Assembly: GCA_965207225.1 (NCBI GenBank)
Contig: CBDBLV010000003.1
Coordinates: 160,001 to 224,000 of the forward strand
Reading direction: 5' to 3'
Length of the DNA stretch: 64,000 bases
Origin: Dehalococcoidia bacterium
GTDB lineage: Bacteria > Chloroflexota > Dehalococcoidia > Plut-88900
Shown: piece by piece, positions 30,688-35,787 of the stretch
Layout of the letters: each line of letters starts with the position of its first letter
Position numbering within the stretch: the first letter of the stretch is position 1
Position numbers and translations under genes: made by a program
The notes under the pieces: generated by a model
What the model was told of the DNA's origin: nothing
The model's input: the letters and a program-made list of their open reading frames with translations, nothing else
The model's database searches: none

Positions 30688-31974
30688 CTACCGGCCGTTA
30701 CGCGCCCACTGCCGGACCATTGAGGGGTCTGGCTCTTGCTTGAGGCAGCCCCGAGCACCGCCGAGACGCTGGAAGTCCCGGGATCGCTTTGCCAGGTTAC
30801 GGCGGAAGAGTATCAGGCCCCGGTCCAACAGCCCGAGCTTCTGCGGCCGCTCCAGGTTGATGTGCTCGTTCTTGAAGACTATCAGGTCTTCCTTTTCGTT
30901 GATGGCTATGACCCGAGCGGGCTTGTTCCAGAAGTAGTACCAGACGTCCATCCACAGCTTGCCGAAGACGGTCCTCGGGGTCTTGCAGATGGTGAACGTC
31001 CAGACCCGGGTGTTCTCCTCGTCGACTGGTACACCCCAGCGCAGGTGCACCAGGCTCCCGATGCAGACCCTGATCTTCGTGGGCAGTTGGAGGTTGTGGT
31101 TGTAGGTGGCCCACGCCTTTTCGCCCGTGGCCGTGGCTATCATGCCGGCGTTTGGAGTCTTGGGTGCCGGGAGCTTGCGCCACCAAGTCTTGCGGGGCCA
31201 CTTCCCCAGGCCCGGGTACTCCGCATGCCCGAACTTGGCCTCCGCGGTTTTGACCCAGATGTTGTCCTCTCCCTCGGATACTATCTCCGTGCCGCCGGTG
31301 GAAACCGACTTGGGCCGCCAGAAGGGGAACCGCCAGTCCACGAAGCGCCAAAAGTTGAGGCCCCGGTGCAGGTAGAACTCATGGTAGTCGATGCCCTGGT
31401 TCATGGGCTCGGTCCAGTTTGTTTCCCACATCTTGACCCTGGTGTACTTGCGGCCCGTGAGCGTGGAGTCGGAGAACTCGTAGGGGAGGTCTTCTTCGAA
31501 GGGAACAGGGTCGGTCTCTCCCATCCACACGAGGACTATGCCGTTCCACTCGGCGGTGGGGTAGACCCGGGTGCGCATCTTGCCGACCAGCGGGGAGTCC
31601 GTGCTCTCTATCAGTCCGGCGACGCAGTTGCCCGACTCGTCAAACGTATAGCCGTGGTAAGGACAAGTGACCGTGCCCTCGAACTCGCAGAAACCCCGGG
31701 AGAGCCGGGCCCCGCGGTGAGGGCACCACTCGTTAAGCGCGACGACGTTGCCCTTCTTGCCCCGGAACAGCACCAGCTCCTCCCCGAGCATCTTGATGTT
31801 CTTCGGCTTCCGCCCGACCTCCTTCGACCAGACGCACGGGTACCAGTACTCCCGGAACCCGACCTTCGGCACGTAGTCGAACGGGCCAATCTGCGTAGCG
31901 CCGTAGGCCTCGTCCTGGACATCCGGTCTTTGGGTTGTAAGAGTTTCGATATCCCTCTTGGTCGTGACTACCAT
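30688..31974 (-). CDS. Rieske non-heme iron oxygenase, alpha subunit
   Basis: CPHRG...CPYHG Rieske motif; DYHEFYLH and EDL as candidate mononuclear Fe ligands. Confidence 0.88.
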   Translation of the reverse strand: MVVTTKRDIETLTTQRPDVQDEAYGATQIGPFDYVPKVGFREYWYPCVWSKEVGRKPKNIKMLGEELVLFRGKKGNVVALNEWCPHRGARLSRGFCEFEGTVTCPYHGYTFDESGNCVAGLIESTDSPLVGKMRTRVYPTAEWNGIVLVWMGETDPVPFEEDLPYEFSDSTLTGRKYTRVKMWETNWTEPMNQGIDYHEFYLHRGLNFWRFVDWRFPFWRPKSVSTGGTEIVSEGEDNIWVKTAEAKFGHAEYPGLGKWPRKTWWRKLPAPKTPNAGMIATATGEKAWATYNHNLQLPTKIRVCIGSLVHLRWGVPVDEENTRVWTFTICKTPRTVFGKLWMDVWYYFWNKPARVIAINEKEDLIVFKNEHINLERPQKLGLLDRGLILFRRNLAKRSRDFQRLGGARGCLKQEPDPSMVRQWARNGR

Positions 31975-32112: not shown

Positions 32113-32913
32113 ATGCCTGTACTGAGCAAGAGCCGTGAGGGTCGTAAAGAGATAATCGGCGTCGTGCACCTGCTGCCGCTCCCCGGGAGTCCCGGCTGGA
32201 AGGGAGACCTTGACGTTGTCGTGGAGCACGCCTTAAGGGACACCGAGGCCCTCGCCCGCGGCGGCATCGACGCCGTGATATTCGAGAACTTCGGCGACGT
32301 TCCTTTCCTGCGCGGGCCCCTGCCTCCCGAGACCATCGCAGCCATGGCAGTGGTGATCGAGGGTGTGGCCAACAACGTCGAAGTTCCCTTCGGGGTGAAC
32401 GTCCTGCGCAACGACCCCATCGCTGCCCTCGGCCTGGCCTATGCAACAGGTGGCGAGTTCATAAGGGTCAATGTTCACACCGGCGTAATGGTCACCGACC
32501 AGGGGATCATCGAGGGTCGGGCCGAGGATACAGTGAGGAGAAGAACTGCACTGTCAGCACCCGTCAAGCTCCTCGCAGATGTCCTGGTGAAGCACGCCGT
32601 GCCCCTGGGAGAACAGGACATCCGGGACGCTGCAAAAGCCGCTGTTTACAGGGGAATGGCCAATGCGCTGATAGTGACGGGGCCTTTTACGGGGAAAGAG
32701 GCCGACCTATCGGACGTAAAGGCGGTGAAGGAGTCGGTGCCGGAAGGCACTCCGGTGCTGGTCGGGAGCGGAATCACCGAGGCCAATATCGGGAGCTACC
32801 TGGAGTGGGCAGACGGGGTGATTGTGGGGACAAGCCTGAAGAGGGCTAGCGTGGTATCCAATCCGGTCGATGTGGAGAGGGTGGTGAGGCTCGTGTCGGC
32901 GGGGCGGGGCTAG
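32113..32913 (+). CDS. BtpA/SgcQ family protein
   Basis: IIGVVHLLPLPGSP, ENFGDVPF, GVNVLRND, ADVLVKH. Confidence 0.92.
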   Translation: MPVLSKSREGRKEIIGVVHLLPLPGSPGWKGDLDVVVEHALRDTEALARGGIDAVIFENFGDVPFLRGPLPPETIAAMAVVIEGVANNVEVPFGVNVLRNDPIAALGLAYATGGEFIRVNVHTGVMVTDQGIIEGRAEDTVRRRTALSAPVKLLADVLVKHAVPLGEQDIRDAAKAAVYRGMANALIVTGPFTGKEADLSDVKAVKESVPEGTPVLVGSGITEANIGSYLEWADGVIVGTSLKRASVVSNPVDVERVVRLVSAGRG

Positions 32914-32920
32914 GCAAAGG

Positions 32921-33111
32921 AAAAGCCCCGAGGCGCTTCAGCCTTACGGCAGTCCCGGTGGACAACCCGGGAACCTCGGGGCTCGGTGCCTGTGCGGATT
33001 CCGTAAACGGAACCCATCGGGCACAACATCGTGTCAAACCGTTTACGTTACAGACACCTCACCAGTCCGTTTATCATCTATTTCCAATTGATCACCTCCT
33101 TTCTTGATGTA
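32921..33111 (-). ncRNA. Candidate small structured RNA / sORF transcript
   Basis: TTGCGC-18 nt-TATATT promoter (33146-33117); AGAAAGGAGGTGATC (33104-33090); internal hairpins; branched terminal stem plus T run. Confidence 0.5.
33043..33087 (-). CDS. 14-aa small ORF MEIDDKRTGEVSVT
   Basis: TTG start 7 nt after the GGAGG core of an extended SD; TAA stop. Confidence 0.4.
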   Translation of the reverse strand: MEIDDKRTGEVSVT

Positions 33112-33240
33112 CTTCCAATATAAGGCCATTGTGGTGAATCGCGCAATACCGGACTTGCACAAGCCGATGTGTATTGCTGAATGGGTGGGGCGGGTCTATC
33201 ATGTCGAGCAAAATTTTTCGAGCCGGGGAAGGGGCGCAAC

Positions 33241-34494
33241 ATGGACTCGGCAAACGGAGAAGCGGGATGTACCTCAGGGCCCTTGAAGGGAATTCGGGTC
33301 ATCGAGCTGGCCGTATGGCACAACGGCGGCGCTGCCGGCTACATGCTCGGAGACCTGGGTGCCGACGTCATCAAGATTGAGCAGCCCCGAGTCGGAGACC
33401 CGAGCCGGGGCGTCACCCAGGCCTTCGGCCACAACCTCGAACTGCCCGGGGGTCGGACCCTGTGGTTCGAGATGGTGAACCGGGGCAAAAGGGCCATGAC
33501 TCTCGACCTCAAGAGCCCTAAAGGCAAAGAGGTCATGCACAAGCTCATCGCCGAGGCCGACGTCTTCTTCACCAACTACACCTCGGACGTCGTCGAACGT
33601 CTGGGTGCCGACTACGAGACCCTCTCCGCCATCAATCCCCGGCTCGTCTGGGCCATAAACACCGCCTACGGCACCCGGGGCCCGCTGGCCAACAAGCACG
33701 GCTACGACTCATCCATCCAGGCCCACACCGGCTATGCCTATCGCATGGGCAACGCCGAGGGCGGGGACCCCATAATCGTCGGGGGCGGCACCTTCGACCA
33801 GTTGGGCGCAACGATGCTGGTCTACGGCATCATGGCCGCGCTGATAGCCAGGGAGAAGCAGGGCGTCGGGCAGGCGGTGGAAGCCTCGATGCTGGGCAGC
33901 TCCGTACACCTGCAGCACGACAACTTCCACATGTACCTCTGGAAGAACGATTCGACCTTCGGAACATCCCCACGGGCTTCACTGGACCCCTTCGTAAACT
34001 GGTACAGGTGCGCTGACGGCAAATGGATCATGCTCAACGAGCCCCATCCCGAGAGGGTCTGGGAAGCGTTCTGCTCCACCATGGGGCTGGACAGGTATGT
34101 GGACGACCCCCGCTTCGACACCCTCGCCGTAAGGCTGGAAAACGCGGCGGCCTTCAGGGACATCCTGATCGAGACCTTCGGGTCTAGACCCAGGCAAACG
34201 TGGACCGACCTGTTCACCAAAAGGAAGGTACGGTTCGTCTACACCCTGGTGAATACGGTGGCCGAGTCCGCCGCCGACCCCCAGGTCCTTGCCAACGAGT
34301 ACGTGGTCGAGACCCAGCACCCGACAATGGGCGCCACCAGGACCACGGGCCTGCCGATCAAGTTCTCCAGGACACCGGCGGAGGTCGGGCATGCGGCCCC
34401 CGAGTTCGGCCAGCACACGGAAGAGGTCTTGACCGAGGTGTGCGGGTATGGCTGGGAAGAGGTCGTCGAGCTGCGGGAGTCGGGCGTGGTCTAG
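33241..34494 (+). CDS. Class III CoA-transferase (CaiB/BaiF family)
   Basis: PLKGIRVIE, LGDLGADVIKIE, NRGKR, APEFGQHTEEVL. Confidence 0.93.
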   Translation: MDSANGEAGCTSGPLKGIRVIELAVWHNGGAAGYMLGDLGADVIKIEQPRVGDPSRGVTQAFGHNLELPGGRTLWFEMVNRGKRAMTLDLKSPKGKEVMHKLIAEADVFFTNYTSDVVERLGADYETLSAINPRLVWAINTAYGTRGPLANKHGYDSSIQAHTGYAYRMGNAEGGDPIIVGGGTFDQLGATMLVYGIMAALIAREKQGVGQAVEASMLGSSVHLQHDNFHMYLWKNDSTFGTSPRASLDPFVNWYRCADGKWIMLNEPHPERVWEAFCSTMGLDRYVDDPRFDTLAVRLENAAAFRDILIETFGSRPRQTWTDLFTKRKVRFVYTLVNTVAESAADPQVLANEYVVETQHPTMGATRTTGLPIKFSRTPAEVGHAAPEFGQHTEEVLTEVCGYGWEEVVELRESGVV

Positions 34495-34506: not shown

Positions 34507-35787
34507 ATGGCTGCCAGTACTATGGCAGCCATATCCCGGGAAACCTCCCACCAGCGTCCCCCCGCCGAGGATCCGATACCGCCGTACCGATGGGCGGTCA
34601 TAGGGGCCATGTCATCGGGCATTGCCACCTCCATGGCGATGCTCTTTTTCATCGGTCTCCTTCTCCCCGACATCTCCGAGGAGATGGGCCTGTCCCCAAC
34701 ACAGCAGGGTCTGGTGGGGTCCTCCGCATTGCTGGTGAACCTGGTGCTTGTTATGCCGATAAACAGCCTGATGTCCAGGTTCAGGCCCCGTCGCATGCTC
34801 ACCTTTGCCCTGCTGGTAGTCGCCGGGTCGGTGTTCATCCAAGCCCGGGCCCCGGTATTCGGGGTGCTGATTCTGGGCAGGGTTGTCCTGGCCCTCGGGA
34901 CCATGTTCACCCAGGCCCCGAGAGTCCTGCTCATCCAGCAGTGGTCCAACCGTCGCCAGATGGCCATGACCAACGGCATCCTGGTGGGAAGCGTTGACAT
35001 GATGTTCGGTGCGGTGTCATTTATGACGCCGTTCATCGTCCAGTGGTCAGGAGGGTGGAGGCGGGCGCTGGATACGTGGGGTTTTGTGTGCATTGCTCTG
35101 ATGCTGGTGTGGTTCGTAGTGGGTCGGGAGCGGGGGGCGGAGGAGCAGAGGGCCCGGGTGAAGGAGCAGGAGGGCACGCCCCTGAAGACCGTCCTGAAGT
35201 ACCGGGAGCTTTGGTATGCCAGCATAGGCCTCTTCGGAGTGGTGCTGGCGGAGATGGCCTTCAGCGTGTTCTGGCCGACCTTCGCAGAGACCCAGCTGAA
35301 CCTGTCGGCTACGATGGTCGGGGTGGCGGTCGGGATTTCGGCCATAGCCGCCGCCCCGAGCTCCATCGGCATCAACGCCGTGGCCTTCTTCAACCGCAAC
35401 AGACCCCTTGTCCTGGCTACCTGCGGGATCGCCAAGTTCATCCTCATCCTGCTGTTGCTCTACACCGAGCCCGCAGCCCTCGTAATCCTCCTGACGACGC
35501 TCAAGGGCATCTTCTCTGCCTTCTTCGCCGTGCTGATGGGCATGGTATTCTACCTGCCCAACATCAAACCCAGGGAGGTCGCCGTCGGGCAGGCGTTCCT
35601 GAGGTTGTCCATATCCACCGGCGCAGCCCTGGGGCCGATGATGGTGGGGTTCGTCCAGGAAGCGACGGGAGACCTGCGTCAGGCGCTGTTGTATACGGCC
35701 TTTGCACCGCTGGCCCTCGTCCTGACCTCGGCGCTGTTGTGGAAGCCGGGTCGGGCCTCCGGCCTCGAGCCCCGGGCCACGACCTAG
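34507..35787 (+). CDS. MFS transporter (start 34507 or 34522)
   Basis: About 12 hydrophobic segments; same family as 27504/28824 (LKYRELW, REVA, GP...TGDLR). Confidence 0.85.
   Translation: MAASTMAAISRETSHQRPPAEDPIPPYRWAVIGAMSSGIATSMAMLFFIGLLLPDISEEMGLSPTQQGLVGSSALLVNLVLVMPINSLMSRFRPRRMLTFALLVVAGSVFIQARAPVFGVLILGRVVLALGTMFTQAPRVLLIQQWSNRRQMAMTNGILVGSVDMMFGAVSFMTPFIVQWSGGWRRALDTWGFVCIALMLVWFVVGRERGAEEQRARVKEQEGTPLKTVLKYRELWYASIGLFGVVLAEMAFSVFWPTFAETQLNLSATMVGVAVGISAIAAAPSSIGINAVAFFNRNRPLVLATCGIAKFILILLLLYTEPAALVILLTTLKGIFSAFFAVLMGMVFYLPNIKPREVAVGQAFLRLSISTGAALGPMMVGFVQEATGDLRQALLYTAFAPLALVLTSALLWKPGRASGLEPRATT

What the first reader, a model, noticed from the sequence alone, without database searches (positions are those of the whole stretch)
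32921..33146. Stand-alone ~190-nt transcript with a 15-nt perfect 16S complement, a 14-codon ORF and a structured 3' domain
Seen on the minus strand between btpA-like and the CoA-transferase: a promoter (TTGCGC-18-TATATT), then within ~10 nt AGAAAGGAGGTGATC, then a TTG-initiated ORF MEIDDKRTGEVSVT that contains a second SD-like TGAGGTG. After that come hairpin GGGTTCCG-TTTA-CGGAATCC and a three-way junction (stem GCCCCGAGG/CCTCGGGGC enclosing CCCGG-loop-CCGGG and GCC-GTAA-GGC, a GNRA tetraloop), ending in TTTT. Established: GATCACCTCCTTTCT is the conserved 16S 3' end, and I noticed no other SD of this length in the window. Inference: a small RNA that captures 30S subunits, or a dual sRNA/micropeptide. 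I could not match it to SRP, 6S, tmRNA or a riboswitch from memory.
Basis: partly seen in the sequence, partly recalled or inferred. Interest (0 to 1): 0.8.

Follow-up and report, generated by a model that had tools for sequence, protein, structure and literature searches.

The report
Translated small RNA with giant ribosome-binding site
This is a stand-alone gene for a known but uncharacterised small RNA family (Ms_IGR-5), found here outside the Actinobacteria, whose tiny translated reading frame is woven into the RNA's own knotted fold, so that a ribosome reading it must unfold the RNA.

Summary
Window 33110-32917 (-) is a full-length match to Rfam RF02471, Ms_IGR-5 (55 bits, cut-off 45), an "actinobacterial" sRNA that is expressed, ribosome-protected and NAD-capped in mycobacteria or Streptomyces and has no known function.

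New here:
- The family also occurs in all 12 of 12 genomes of this organism's order (inferred Dehalococcoidia, Chloroflexota), in the Methylomirabilota-titled phylum (32 of 121) and sparsely in the Acidobacteriota-titled phylum (5 of 151).
- The 15-nt complement to the genome's own 16S tail is the longest in 4.03 Mb.
- The mini-ORF is truly a reading frame. An in-frame start is present in 157 of 172 sequences (7 and 9 in the other frames), frame 0 is open in 172 of 172, and the stop is always 9 nt after GAGGUG. The peptide itself is not conserved.
- Covariation supports a fold Rfam lacks. The ORF's second half and stop codon pair with the 3' domain (Pa, Pb), and GGACN pairs with the GUCC loop (pseudoknot).

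Best reading: a ribosome-operated RNA switch. Its output is unknown.

The parts
33117..33146 (-). Probable promoter: -35 TTGCGC (33146-33141), 18-nt spacer, -10 TATATT (33122-33117)
   Evidence: Read. Both hexamers are conserved across the 12 genomes of the order while the surrounding bases vary. The generic scanner did not call it. No transcript data exist for this organism.
32917..33110 (-). The RNA gene: a full-length member of Rfam RF02471 (Ms_IGR-5), about 194 nt, with probable +1 at A33110
   Evidence: cmscan gives 55 bits against a gathering score of 45, E 1.6e-09, model positions 1-184 of 184. My own model R1 gives 124.9 bits. The +1 is inferred from the model's start, the conserved (U)ACAC, and the +1A reported for M. 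smegmatis IGR-5.
33090..33104 (-). SD1: AGAAAGGAGGUGAUC, a 15-nt perfect complement of this genome's own 16S 3' tail
   Evidence: The 16S tail was read in the genome and the k-mer census shows this is the longest complement in 4.03 Mb. The predicted duplex is -26.8 kcal/mol. It is invariant, or carries a single G-U, in all relatives.
33043..33087 (-). Mini-ORF: TTG start, 14 codons (MEIDDKRTGEVSVT), TAA stop at 33045-33043
   Evidence: Across 172 distinct relatives a canonical start 4-14 nt after GGAGG is in frame in 157, against 7 and 9 in the other frames. Frame 0 has no stop in 172 of 172, against 6 and 46. The stop lies 9 nt after GAGGUG in 130 of 130 motif-selected loci. It does so in 66 of 67 model-found loci, and the 67th does so for its second GAGGUG.
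33064..33068 (-). Pseudoknot 5' strand: GGACU (codons 7-8 of the ORF)
   Evidence: It pairs with the GUCC loop. The base after GGAC covaries with the base before GUCC, complementary in 89 of 142 sequences with all four Watson-Crick types. On A4 there are 30 double changes against 17.9 +/- 2.4 in shuffles. In this window the fifth pair is U-U, so there are 4 pairs here.
33055..33062 (-). Inner SD-like block GUGAGGUG (SD2), always ending 9 nt before the stop codon
   Evidence: Its last four bases open helix Pa.
33050..33058 (-). Helix Pa, 5' strand: GGUGUCUGU (codons 11-13)
   Evidence: Pairs with 32993-32985. Pa is 94.8% paired on A4 and 89.4% on A6, with compensatory changes in 5 and 6 of its 10 pairs.
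33039..33047 (-). Helix Pb, 5' strand: CGUAAACGG (last sense codon, stop codon and 4 more bases)
   Evidence: Pairs with 33010-33002. Pb is 82% paired on A4 and 78% on A6, and all 7 pairs have compensatory changes. UAAACGG:CCGUUUA here becomes UAGGCG:CGCCUA in the Methylomirabilota-type copies.
32996..33015 (-). It contains the Pb 3' strand CCGUUUACG (33010-33002) and the conserved GAAUCC block (33001-32996)
   Evidence: It is in the MFE fold. The Pa+Palt state is -75.5 and the Pa+Pb state -73.3 kcal/mol. The outer stem varies as GGGUU:AAUCC, GGAUU:AAUUC and GAAUU:AAUUC in relatives (read by eye, no formal count).
32985..32993 (-). Helix Pa, 3' strand: ACAGGCACC (a 16S-tail-like CACC that pairs with the GGUG of SD2)
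32925..32982 (-). Terminal stem Pt (GCCCCGAGG / CCUCGGGGC) enclosing hairpin Ph (CCCGGG-UUGUCCA-CCGGG, with loop GUCC at 32963-32960) and a lineage-specific hairpin GCC-GUAA-GGC
   Evidence: MFE fold. Pt is 98.8% and 91.7% paired on A4 and 91.6% on A6, with 13 of 13 pairs compensated. Ph is 86% on A4 and 74% on A6. The GUCC loop is invariant within the order.
32915..32924 (-). U tract and tail (UUUUCCUUUG). With Pt it looks like an intrinsic terminator, and it ends 4 nt from the stop codon of the convergent btpA-family gene
   Evidence: The generic terminator scan did not call it, because the stem encloses two hairpins.

Best explanation
Shown.
- The locus is a stand-alone gene for a member of the Ms_IGR-5 RNA family (RF02471). 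It has its own conserved promoter-like hexamers, a terminator-like 3' stem, and no co-directional downstream gene.
- The RNA carries a 5'-proximal 15-nt complement of the cell's own 16S tail, followed 7 nt later by a mini-ORF.
- Start, frame and stop of that ORF are conserved across four phyla. The peptide is not.
- From codon 7 onward the ORF is built into the RNA's fold. GGACN pairs with the GUCC loop of a 3' hairpin (pseudoknot). GGUG plus the next 5-6 bases pair with a CACC-ending strand next to the terminal stem (Pa). The stop-codon region pairs with a strand a little upstream of that (Pb).

Inferred.
- A ribosome recruited by the very strong SD must unzip the pseudoknot, Pa and Pb to reach the stop codon. 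A translated RNA and a folded RNA are therefore mutually exclusive states.
- The freed 3' strand can refold into the alternative hairpin, which is nearly iso-energetic with Pb in this window.
- When the stop codon is in the A site, the inner GAGGUG sits 6 nt upstream of the P-site codon. That is the spacing of an initiation complex, so it could hold the terminating ribosome by pairing with the 16S tail.
- The element would thus work as a ribosome-operated RNA switch. Translation itself is the signal and the peptide is a by-product.

Not known: what the switch controls. Candidates are the RNA's own lifetime, exposure of the CACC strand or the conserved GAAUCC block to a partner, or retention of ribosomes.
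For: Membership:
- 55 bits against a cut-off of 45, full length.
- Present in 12 of 12 genomes of the order.

Translation:
- In 172 distinct sequences a canonical start 4-14 nt after GGAGG is in frame in 157, against 7 and 9 in the other frames.
- Frame 0 is stop-free in 172 of 172, against 6 and 46.
- The SD1-to-GAG distance ranges from 28 to 50 nt over all residues mod 3, yet the start stays in frame.
- ORF lengths of 9-19 codons are all in frame.
- Start codons turn over among ATG, GTG and TTG, and stops among TAG, TAA and TGA.
- Ribosome-protected reads on Ms_IGR-5 homologues in M. abscessus and M. smegmatis are reported in PMC4974804 (one passage read).

Fold:
- On 98 motif-selected sequences 91.0% of cells pair, against 75.7% in shuffles and 38-46% with slid partners. 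29 of 36 pairs have compensatory changes.
- On 70 model-found sequences 85.6% pair against 64.2%, and 32 of 36 pairs are compensated.
- The fifth pair of the pseudoknot shows all four Watson-Crick types.
- Single variants fit: GGAU:AUCC (L178), UGACC:GGUCA (L148) and CGACC:GGUCG (L160). Two copies that lack the loop also lack GGAC (L147, L149).

Bistability: -73.3 against -75.5 kcal/mol.

Stand-alone status:
- The downstream gene is convergent and the upstream gene divergent.
- Neighbours differ between the genera of the order.
- No neighbour is universal in Actinomycetota; the commonest occurs in 36 loci and is convergent.

SD1: unique in the genome, duplex -26.8 kcal/mol.
Against: - There are no transcript, ribosome-profiling or structure-probing data for this organism. 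No RNA run holds the locus.
- The switch and the termination hold are inferred from geometry only.
- The constant 9-nt distance from GAGGUG to the stop could simply follow from the lengths of Pa and Pb.
- The motif-selected set was chosen for AGGAGGTG and GGACNNGTGAGGTG, so the invariance of those blocks in that set is by construction. The alignments A4, A5 and A6 were fitted to my own model, which favours its structure.
- Related sequences are not independent, so the shuffle controls overstate significance.
- In one group 11 copies have CTG, 1 has ATA and 1 has ATT at the start position. 'NUG' could therefore be partly an RNA-level constraint.
- In this window the fifth pseudoknot pair is U-U.
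- The support for Palt from variation in its outer stem was read by eye on a few lineages and not counted formally.
- No output of the switch has been identified.
Confidence: 0.5

Rival explanations
1. A 30S-capturing or ribosome-parking RNA. The 15-nt SD1 binds the 16S 3' tail so tightly that the RNA's main role is to hold or protect small subunits or 70S ribosomes, for example in slow growth. The pseudoknot 19 nt downstream of the start acts as a roadblock, and translation of the mini-ORF is only the release route.
For: - SD1 is the longest 16S-tail complement in the genome, with a predicted duplex of -26.8 kcal/mol.
- 15-17 nt of complementarity is kept in four phyla.
- Ribosome-protected reads are reported in mycobacteria.
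- The folded part of the ORF begins 19 nt after the first base of the start codon in this window and about 13 nt after it in actinobacterial copies, close to the mRNA entry site of an initiating ribosome (established geometry; positions).
Against: - One RNA gene per genome would have to be very abundant to titrate ribosomes, and no abundance data were seen.
- Strict conservation of the frame and the stop codon shows that ribosomes are expected to reach the stop, which a pure trap does not need.
- No co-sedimentation or binding data were found in the papers read.
Confidence: 0.2
2. A base-pairing or protein-binding sRNA whose 5' SD and mini-ORF serve mainly to stabilise it. A bound or translating ribosome near the 5' end would block 5'-end-dependent RNases, as with STAB-SD stabilisers. 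The working part would be the 3' domain: the CACC strand, the GAAUCC block or the GUCC loop.
For: - SD1 starts only 6 nt from the probable 5' end.
- Blocks outside the ORF are conserved: GAAUxCC, CAGxCACC and the GUCC loop.
- The RNA was first recovered as an sRNA, and RNA-seq validated it in Streptomyces.
Against: - The conserved 3' blocks are explained by intramolecular pairing with the ORF (Pa, Pb, pseudoknot). That leaves little free seed sequence.
- A stabiliser needs neither a conserved stop codon nor a conserved frame.
- No targets are known.
Confidence: 0.15
3. A dual-function RNA whose 14-residue peptide is itself the active product.
For: A conserved, translated frame with a strong SD. 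Small peptides can be functional.
Against: - Only E-V is constant, and it is the GAGGUG block.
- Variation sits at first codon positions: xGG gives R, W or G, and NGU gives R, C, S or G.
- Residues 2-4 are free, and length runs from 9 to 19 codons. This is the pattern of constraint on the RNA, not on a protein.
Confidence: 0.07
4. A cis-acting leader or attenuator (regulatory uORF) of a neighbouring gene.
For: A short ORF followed by alternative structures and a terminator-like stem is the anatomy of an attenuator.
Against: - The next gene downstream is convergent and lies 4 nt from the U tract.
- Neighbours differ among the genera of the order.
- In Actinomycetota the commonest downstream neighbour is convergent, and no co-directional gene is conserved.
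- The alternative hairpin does not compete with the terminal stem.
Confidence: 0.03

Closest known systems
Rfam RF02471, Ms_IGR-5 ('Actinobacteria sRNA Ms_IGR-5'), first reported in Mycobacterium smegmatis between MSMEG_5794 and MSMEG_5795
   Same: - Full-length match above the curated cut-off.
- The same conserved blocks, and the same order of ORF and 3' domain as in 118 actinobacterial copies.
- Published homologues are expressed, ribosome-protected and NAD-capped at a +1A.
   Different: - The host is not an actinobacterium.
- The ORF is 14 codons instead of 12, and the SD-to-start spacing is 7 nt instead of 10-12.
- This copy has an extra GCC-GUAA-GGC hairpin and a U-tract terminator.
- The Rfam consensus structure lacks Pa and the pseudoknot. 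Its first hairpin has no covariation support: 90.0% paired against 89.7% in shuffles.
STAB-SD 5' mRNA stabilisers of Bacillus (an SD-like sequence near the 5' end that binds 30S and protects the RNA). Recalled from general knowledge; no paper was read here
   Same: A near-perfect, extended complement of the 16S tail lies a few bases from the 5' end of the transcript.
   Different: Here a start codon and a conserved reading frame follow the SD. A classical STAB-SD does not initiate translation. A stabilising effect was not tested.
Regulatory leader peptides or uORFs, and the programmed frameshift site of prfB (an inner SD upstream of an in-frame stop). Recalled from general knowledge
   Same: A mini-ORF whose translation, rather than its product, matters. 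An SD-like block inside the ORF lies at a fixed distance from the stop. Alternative RNA structures are present.
   Different: - No regulated downstream gene.
- The spacing is 9 nt to the stop, not 3 nt to a slippery codon.
- The other two frames are closed: open in 6 and 46 of 172. No frameshift product is therefore expected.
Dual-function (coding) sRNAs such as SgrS/SgrT or SR1/SR1P. Seen only as a review title in a search listing (PMC12612679); the rest is recalled
   Same: One short transcript with both a structured RNA part and a translated ORF.
   Different: In those RNAs the ORF and the RNA-acting part are largely separate and the peptide is conserved. Here the ORF is inside the fold and the peptide is not conserved.

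Membership tests
Rfam RF02471 Ms_IGR-5 | Score at or above the curated gathering threshold over the whole covariance model | tested here: met
   55 bits against 45, model positions 1-184 of 184, E 1.6e-09 over the 64-kb window and 1.8e-11 over 701 nt. It is the only family above threshold in the window.
Rfam RF02471 Ms_IGR-5 | Shared conserved sequence blocks in the same order: 5' ACAC...GGAGGUG, GGACNNGUGAGGUG, GAAUxCC...CAGxCACC, GUCC loop, G+C-rich terminal stem | tested here: met
   Seen in the cmscan alignment and side by side with 118 actinobacterial copies. My own model R1, built from 32 sequences that include 5 from this order, gives 124.9 bits.
Rfam RF02471 Ms_IGR-5 | Conserved secondary structure supported by covariation | tested here: met
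   Terminal stem, Ph, Pa and Pb are supported. The first hairpin of the Rfam consensus is not supported, and in this window it shows non-canonical pairs.
Rfam RF02471 Ms_IGR-5 | Host in Actinobacteria, as in the family's name | tested here: not met
   - The family was found in 0 of 150 other genomes of the host's phylum above cut-off, against 20 of 151 in the phylum of a Mycobacterium MAG.
- Same-class genomes carry 19-30 reductive-dehalogenase matches in closed genomes of 1.4-1.9 Mb. This points to Dehalococcoidia (inference).
- The taxon is a label and not part of the model, so it does not bar membership.
Rfam RF02471 Ms_IGR-5 | Expressed as a discrete small transcript | not testable with these tools
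   No RNA run holds the locus. Expression is published only for Streptomyces and mycobacteria.
Leader-peptide attenuator or regulatory uORF | A co-directional gene downstream whose expression depends on the short ORF | tested here: not met
   The downstream gene is convergent. There is no conserved co-directional neighbour.
Programmed +1/-1 frameshift site (prfB- or dnaX-like) | An inner SD at 3 nt (+1) or about 10 nt (-1) from a slippery site, with an extended ORF in the shifted frame | tested here: not met
   No long ORF exists in the other frames: stop-free in only 6 and 46 of 172 even over the short stretch. A slippery heptamer was not looked for formally.
STAB-SD-type 5' stabiliser | A 5'-proximal SD-like sequence that binds 30S without starting translation and lengthens RNA half-life | tested here: inconclusive
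   The 5'-proximal extended SD is present. A conserved start codon and frame follow it, so 'without translation' is not met. Half-life cannot be tested here.
   No such family was reported at the gathering threshold in the window, nor at E up to 1 with permissive filters in 32700-33400.

The most novel reading that the evidence does not exclude
Ms_IGR-5 is not an 'actinobacterial sRNA'. It would be a multi-phylum, ribosome-operated RNA device: a compact pseudoknotted RNA that recruits a ribosome through a 15-17-nt duplex with the 16S tail. That ribosome unfolds the RNA while reading a mini-ORF whose peptide is irrelevant. The RNA then holds the terminating ribosome with a second SD placed at initiation-complex spacing from the stop. 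This would be a free-standing sensor or buffer of translational capacity (initiation, helicase or termination activity). It would represent a class of trans-acting, translation-gated RNA that has not been described.
Probability: 0.3. Interest if true: 0.85.

Novelty: new member of a known kind. Interest (0 to 1): 0.6.

Why it matters
Ms_IGR-5 has sat in Rfam for years as one of many mycobacterial sRNAs of unknown function. This locus, together with the relatives gathered here, shows three things:
- It is conserved well beyond the Actinobacteria.
- It contains a reading frame under selection for being read, not for what it encodes.
- That frame is threaded through a covariation-supported pseudoknotted fold, next to the strongest possible ribosome-binding site.

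This gives a concrete, testable mechanism for an orphan RNA that is present in model and medically relevant genera (Mycobacterium, Streptomyces, Nocardia, Rhodococcus). It also gives a better structural model than the current Rfam consensus. If the ribosome-operated reading is right, it would be a new way for cells to couple an RNA's conformation to the state of the translation machinery. If it is wrong, the finding is still a clean annotation: a known sRNA family newly placed in Chloroflexota, the Methylomirabilota-titled phylum and the Acidobacteriota-titled phylum.

Tried and rejected
- Transcript evidence in this organism. The look-up of sequencing runs listed 6 holders from 2 studies, and no RNA holder was listed. 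I did not use read laying, because contigs cannot show an RNA.
It was not used.
- Generic promoter and terminator scan. Nothing was called in 32700-33400. I kept the promoter and terminator readings on conservation and fold only.
- First hairpin of the Rfam consensus (SD1 3' half with codons 10-11). It is 90.0% paired against 89.7% in shuffles, so it has no covariation support. I rejected it as a conserved helix, though it remains possible as a transient G-U-rich pairing.
- Closing helix between SD1 and the 3' tail. It is in the MFE fold of this window, but the tails of relatives are not consistently complementary. I did not count it as part of the family fold.
- Conserved gene neighbourhood in Actinomycetota. 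After clustering ORFs within 2.5 kb, the best cluster is a convergent THAP4-like heme-binding (nitrobindin-type) gene in 36 loci. Fur, DtxR-type, GCV_T, rhodanese and DUF1416 genes each occur in fewer loci. The ORF lists in high-G+C DNA include shadow ORFs, so the counts are rough. No universal partner gene emerged.
- Best-complement scan for Pa. For about 24 of 125 loci the top hit was at a non-homologous site, and 101 of 125 passed the position filter. The model-based alignments replaced this scan.
- Literature. I searched 'Ms_IGR-5' (3 papers). I also searched 'IGR-5' with M. smegmatis and sRNA (3 papers) and MSMEG_5794/5795 (4 papers). Six possible M. tuberculosis sRNA names returned nothing. 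Two further searches were a broad small-ORF/SD/sRNA query and the original Hfq study (found only as a cited reference and not read). No passage I read assigns a function or mentions the mini-ORF. The main texts of PMC4633059 and PMC9094748 do not mention the locus. I therefore cannot claim that the ORF is unreported.
- The weak 27-bit hit in another genome of the host's phylum (G169, L013) scores only 21.6 bits with my model and lacks the core block. It is left as an unresolved possible distant relative.
- A rough identity ranking puts Methylomirabilota-type copies (59-65%) closer to the window than actinobacterial ones (57% or less). No tree was built, so I make no claim about transfer or its direction.
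Full report
WHAT IS THERE.
- TTGCGC (33146-33141), an 18-nt spacer and TATATT (33122-33117);
- a probable +1 A at 33110;
- AGAAAGGAGGTGATC at 33104-33090;
- a TTG-initiated ORF, 33087-33043, reading MEIDDKRTGEVSVT;
- GTGAGGTG inside that ORF (33062-33055);
- the hairpin GGGTTCCG-TTTA-CGGAATCC (33015-32996);
- a three-way junction closed by GCCCCGAGG/CCTCGGGGC, followed by TTTT.

The 201-nt stretch folds to -77.3 kcal/mol, z = -3.37, with 0 of 200 shuffles as stable. The genome's own 16S gene ends in GGATCACCTCCTTTCT. The 15-mer is therefore a perfect complement of that tail. It is the longest such complement anywhere in the 4.03-Mb assembly: two runs of 12 nt come next, and the single 16-nt run is the antisense of the rRNA gene.

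IT IS A KNOWN FAMILY. cmscan of the whole window against Rfam 15 gives one match above threshold. It is RF02471, Ms_IGR-5, at 33110-32917 (-), 55 bits against a gathering score of 45, covering model positions 1-184 of 184. From the papers I read only passages:
- The family is listed as an RNA-seq-validated sRNA in Streptomyces lividans and S. avermitilis (PMC8079986, PMC8780764).
- It is seen in M. smegmatis transcriptomes (PMC10454040).
- It carries 'significant ribosomal reads' in M. abscessus and M. smegmatis (PMC4974804).
- It lies between MSMEG_5794 and MSMEG_5795, is NAD-capped at a +1A, and is 'validated but yet uncharacterized' (bioRxiv 10.1101/2021.12.14.472595).

None of these passages gives a function or mentions an ORF. 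The original description is cited in those papers but is not in the library. Supplements are closed.

WHERE IT OCCURS.
- The family is present once per genome in 12 of 12 genomes of the host's order, which is one family of four genera.
- It was found in 0 of 29 other families of the same class.
- Among 150 other genomes of the phylum, one weak hit of 27 bits and none above cut-off.
- Five closed genomes of 1.4-1.9 Mb in the same class carry 19-30 reductive-dehalogenase matches each. From general knowledge this marks Dehalococcoides and Dehalogenimonas. I therefore infer that the class is Dehalococcoidia and the phylum Chloroflexota. No tool named the organism.
By record title 116 are Actinomycetota. 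One is a chance hit inside a Streptomyces coding region (L042). One is a Candidatus Methylomirabilis MAG (L116) and one a Candidatus Polarisedimenticolia MAG (L039).
- With the Rfam model, matches at E up to 0.001 occur as follows. Phylum of a Mycobacterium MAG: 44 of 151 genomes, 20 above cut-off. Phylum of the Methylomirabilis MAG: 32 of 121, 21 above cut-off. Phylum of the Polarisedimenticolia MAG: 5 of 151, of which only that flagged MAG is above cut-off.
- My own model confirms three of the four sub-threshold Acidobacteriota-phylum hits at 59-78 bits and the fourth at 51 bits.

The name 'Actinobacteria sRNA' is therefore too narrow. These are samples, so 'not found' means not found in the genomes searched.

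THE MINI-ORF IS A REAL READING FRAME BUT NOT A CONSERVED PEPTIDE. In 130 of 131 motif-bearing loci the block xGG-ACN-NGU-GAG-GUG lies in an ORF of 11-15 codons. Of these, 115 have 12 codons, 10 have 14, 3 have 15, 1 has 13 and 1 has 11. Starts are TTG 68, ATG 41 and GTG 21. A stop codon (TAG, TAA or TGA) lies exactly 9 nt after GAGGUG.

That set was chosen by motif, so I repeated the test on 70 sequences found by covariance models.
- 67 have both SD blocks.
- The stop is 9 nt after GAGGUG in 66. The 67th has two GAGGUG blocks and obeys the rule for the second.
- 54 have a canonical in-frame start.
- The other 13, one group, have CTG (11), ATA (1) or ATT (1) at the same place, with the frame open.

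Over all 172 distinct sequences:
- a canonical start 4-14 nt after GGAGG is in frame in 157, against 7 and 9 for the other frames;
- frame 0 is free of stops in 172 of 172, against 6 and 46;
- the distance from SD1 to GAG takes values from 28 to 50 nt in all residue classes mod 3, while the start stays in frame.

Against a functional peptide: only E-V, which is the GAGGUG itself, is constant. The variable positions are first codon positions (xGG gives R, W or G; NGU gives R, C, S or G). Residues 2-4 are free, and length ranges from 9 to 19 codons. What is selected is that the frame is read, not what it spells.

THE FOLD. A search for the best complement of 'GGUG plus six bases' found a partner ending in CACC just 5' of the terminal stem. 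In most loci it lies at the same homologous site. Of 125 loci, 73 score 10 of 10 and 50 score 9 of 10, and 101 pass a position filter. Double compensations are plain, for example GGUGACCACC:GGUGGUCACC in L051 and GGUGGCUUCC:GGAAGUCACC in L098. In the window the pair is GGUGUCUGU:ACAGGCACC.

I wrote a structure with four helices:
- Pa, as just described;
- Pb, the stop-codon region with the strand just 5' of the conserved GAAUxCC block;
- Pt, the terminal stem;
- Ph, the hairpin with the GUCC loop.

I built model R1 from 32 sequences. It matched 98 of 100 loci; the two misses are the chance hit L042 and the weak L013.

On that alignment 91.0% of cells pair, against 75.7% in shuffles and 38-46% with slid partners, and 29 of 36 pairs show compensatory changes. 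Pa is 94.8% paired, Pb 82.0%, Pt 98.8% and 91.7%, and Ph 86.2%. On the 70 model-found sequences the figures are 85.6% against 64.2%, with 32 of 36 pairs compensated.

Caveats: both alignments were fitted to my model, the sequences are related, and the shuffle control is not a probability. The first hairpin of the Rfam consensus has no support beyond base composition, at 90.0% against 89.7%.

A PSEUDOKNOT. GGAC in the ORF and GUCC in the Ph loop are both nearly invariant, which proves nothing by itself (99% paired, no variation). The next position is informative. The base after GGAC, which is the third base of the Thr codon, is complementary to the base before GUCC in 89 of 142 usable sequences, and all four Watson-Crick types occur: A:U 26, C:G 12, G:C 19 and U:A 28. 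Thirty-two of 174 sequences were unusable, mostly because the core differs. On A4 the fifth pair shows 30 double changes against 17.9 +/- 2.4 in shuffles, with 0 of 500 shuffles as high.

Rare variants change both sides together: GGAU with AUCC (L178), UGACC with GGUCA (L148) and CGACC with GGUCG (L160). Two copies that have no Ph hairpin also lack GGAC (L147, L149). In the window itself the fifth pair is U-U. Other members of the genus have A there.

TWO STATES. For the window RNA the best fold with Pa+Pb is -73.3 kcal/mol and with Pa+Palt -75.5 kcal/mol. In the order and in the Methylomirabilota-type copies the Palt tetraloop changes together with the stop codon and the two bases after it: UAAA with UUUA, and UAGG with CCUA. 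That is Pb covariation. The outer Palt stem also varies compatibly, as GGGUU:AAUCC, GGAUU:AAUUC and GAAUU:AAUUC. These last readings are by eye on few lineages. I take them as a hint that both states are kept.

HOW IT PROBABLY WORKS (INFERENCE). The RNA is stand-alone.
- Its terminator-like stem ends 4 nt from the stop of a convergent gene.
- Within the genus the CoA-transferase gene is upstream in 9 of 9 genomes and btpA downstream in 8 of 9, but the three other genera have other neighbours.
- No neighbour is universal in Actinomycetota.

SD1 can form a 15-bp duplex with the 16S tail, -26.8 kcal/mol. The start codon follows 7 nt after GGAGG. From the seventh codon on, the ORF is paired: pseudoknot, then Pa, then Pb with the stop codon. 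A ribosome that reads the ORF must therefore unfold the RNA, and a folded RNA resists reading.

With the stop codon in the A site, GAGGUG ends 6 nt before the P-site codon. This is the usual SD-to-start spacing (general knowledge), so the 16S tail could re-pair there and delay release. The freed 3' strand can form Palt. I therefore read the element as a ribosome-operated RNA switch in which translation is the signal. Its output is unknown. Published ribosome protection fits this reading, and it equally fits the 30S-capture rival.

RIVALS. The following rivals remain:
- a ribosome-parking or 30S-capturing RNA (0.2);
- a partner-binding sRNA stabilised by a 5' ribosome (0.15);
- an active micropeptide (0.07);
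- a leader of a neighbouring gene (0.03).

The evidence for and against each is given in its own section.

VERDICT. The finding is real and well described. It is a new member of a known family in a new phylum. The family is an orphan, and the analysis gives it a revised, covariation-supported architecture and a testable mechanism. Claims that include rows from genomes flagged as unpublished (G187, G192, G209, G239, G311) are listed under Tried and rejected.

Noticed in passing
L190-L200 (G362, G367, G453, G377, G456, G386, G364, G403, G343, G365, G385): A sub-group in the Methylomirabilota-titled phylum scores below the Rfam cut-off (25-35 bits) but 43-56 bits with my model. It has GGAUCU or UGAUCU in place of GGACNN. 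Its 3' hairpin loop is of the UUUCACC type instead of GUCC. Its ORFs are of the type M-x-x-x-x-V-I-C-E-V-V-[AT]-S. In L195, UGAU faces an AUCA loop. It may be a variant fold in which the 16S-tail mimic sits in the loop.
   Followed up: partly
L150-L152, L154, L155, L159, L163, L165, L182, L184, L185 (phylum of G189): Eleven copies have CTG at the canonical start position of the mini-ORF. L156 has ATA and L189 has ATT. The frame is open in all of them. These are either non-canonical starts driven by the very strong SD or a sign that the 'start' is partly an RNA-level constraint.
   Followed up: partly
L013 (G169:C2:57850-57984, same phylum as the window): This weak hit (27 bits with Rfam, 21.6 with my model) has GAAAGGAGGUGGU near its 5' end, a 15-codon ATG ORF that contains GAGGUC 6 nt before a TAG, and a G+C-rich terminal stem. 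It lacks the core block and the Ph hairpin. It may be a distant, reduced relative or a chance match.
   Followed up: partly
G212:C126:9255-9458 and G212:C17:3902-4104: One genome of the actinomycete phylum sample has two copies of the RNA (43.9 and 41.1 bits). Every other genome with a match has one.
   Followed up: no
window 32913-32925: The U tract of the RNA's terminal stem lies 4 nt from the stop codon of the convergent btpA-family gene. The stem may therefore serve as a two-way terminator for both genes.
   Followed up: no
Actinomycetota loci L014-L132: In 36 loci the RNA is followed by a convergent gene for a THAP4-like heme-binding (nitrobindin-type) protein. Fur-family, DtxR-type, GCV_T, rhodanese and DUF1416 genes recur nearby. 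This matches the MSMEG_5794/5795 neighbourhood named in the literature. Many metal- and sulfur-related genes are present, but none is universal.
   Followed up: partly
window 30688-31974 (-) and 34507-35787 (+): A Rieske-type ring-hydroxylating oxygenase-like gene and an MFS transporter gene flank the btpA / RNA / CoA-transferase trio.
   Followed up: no
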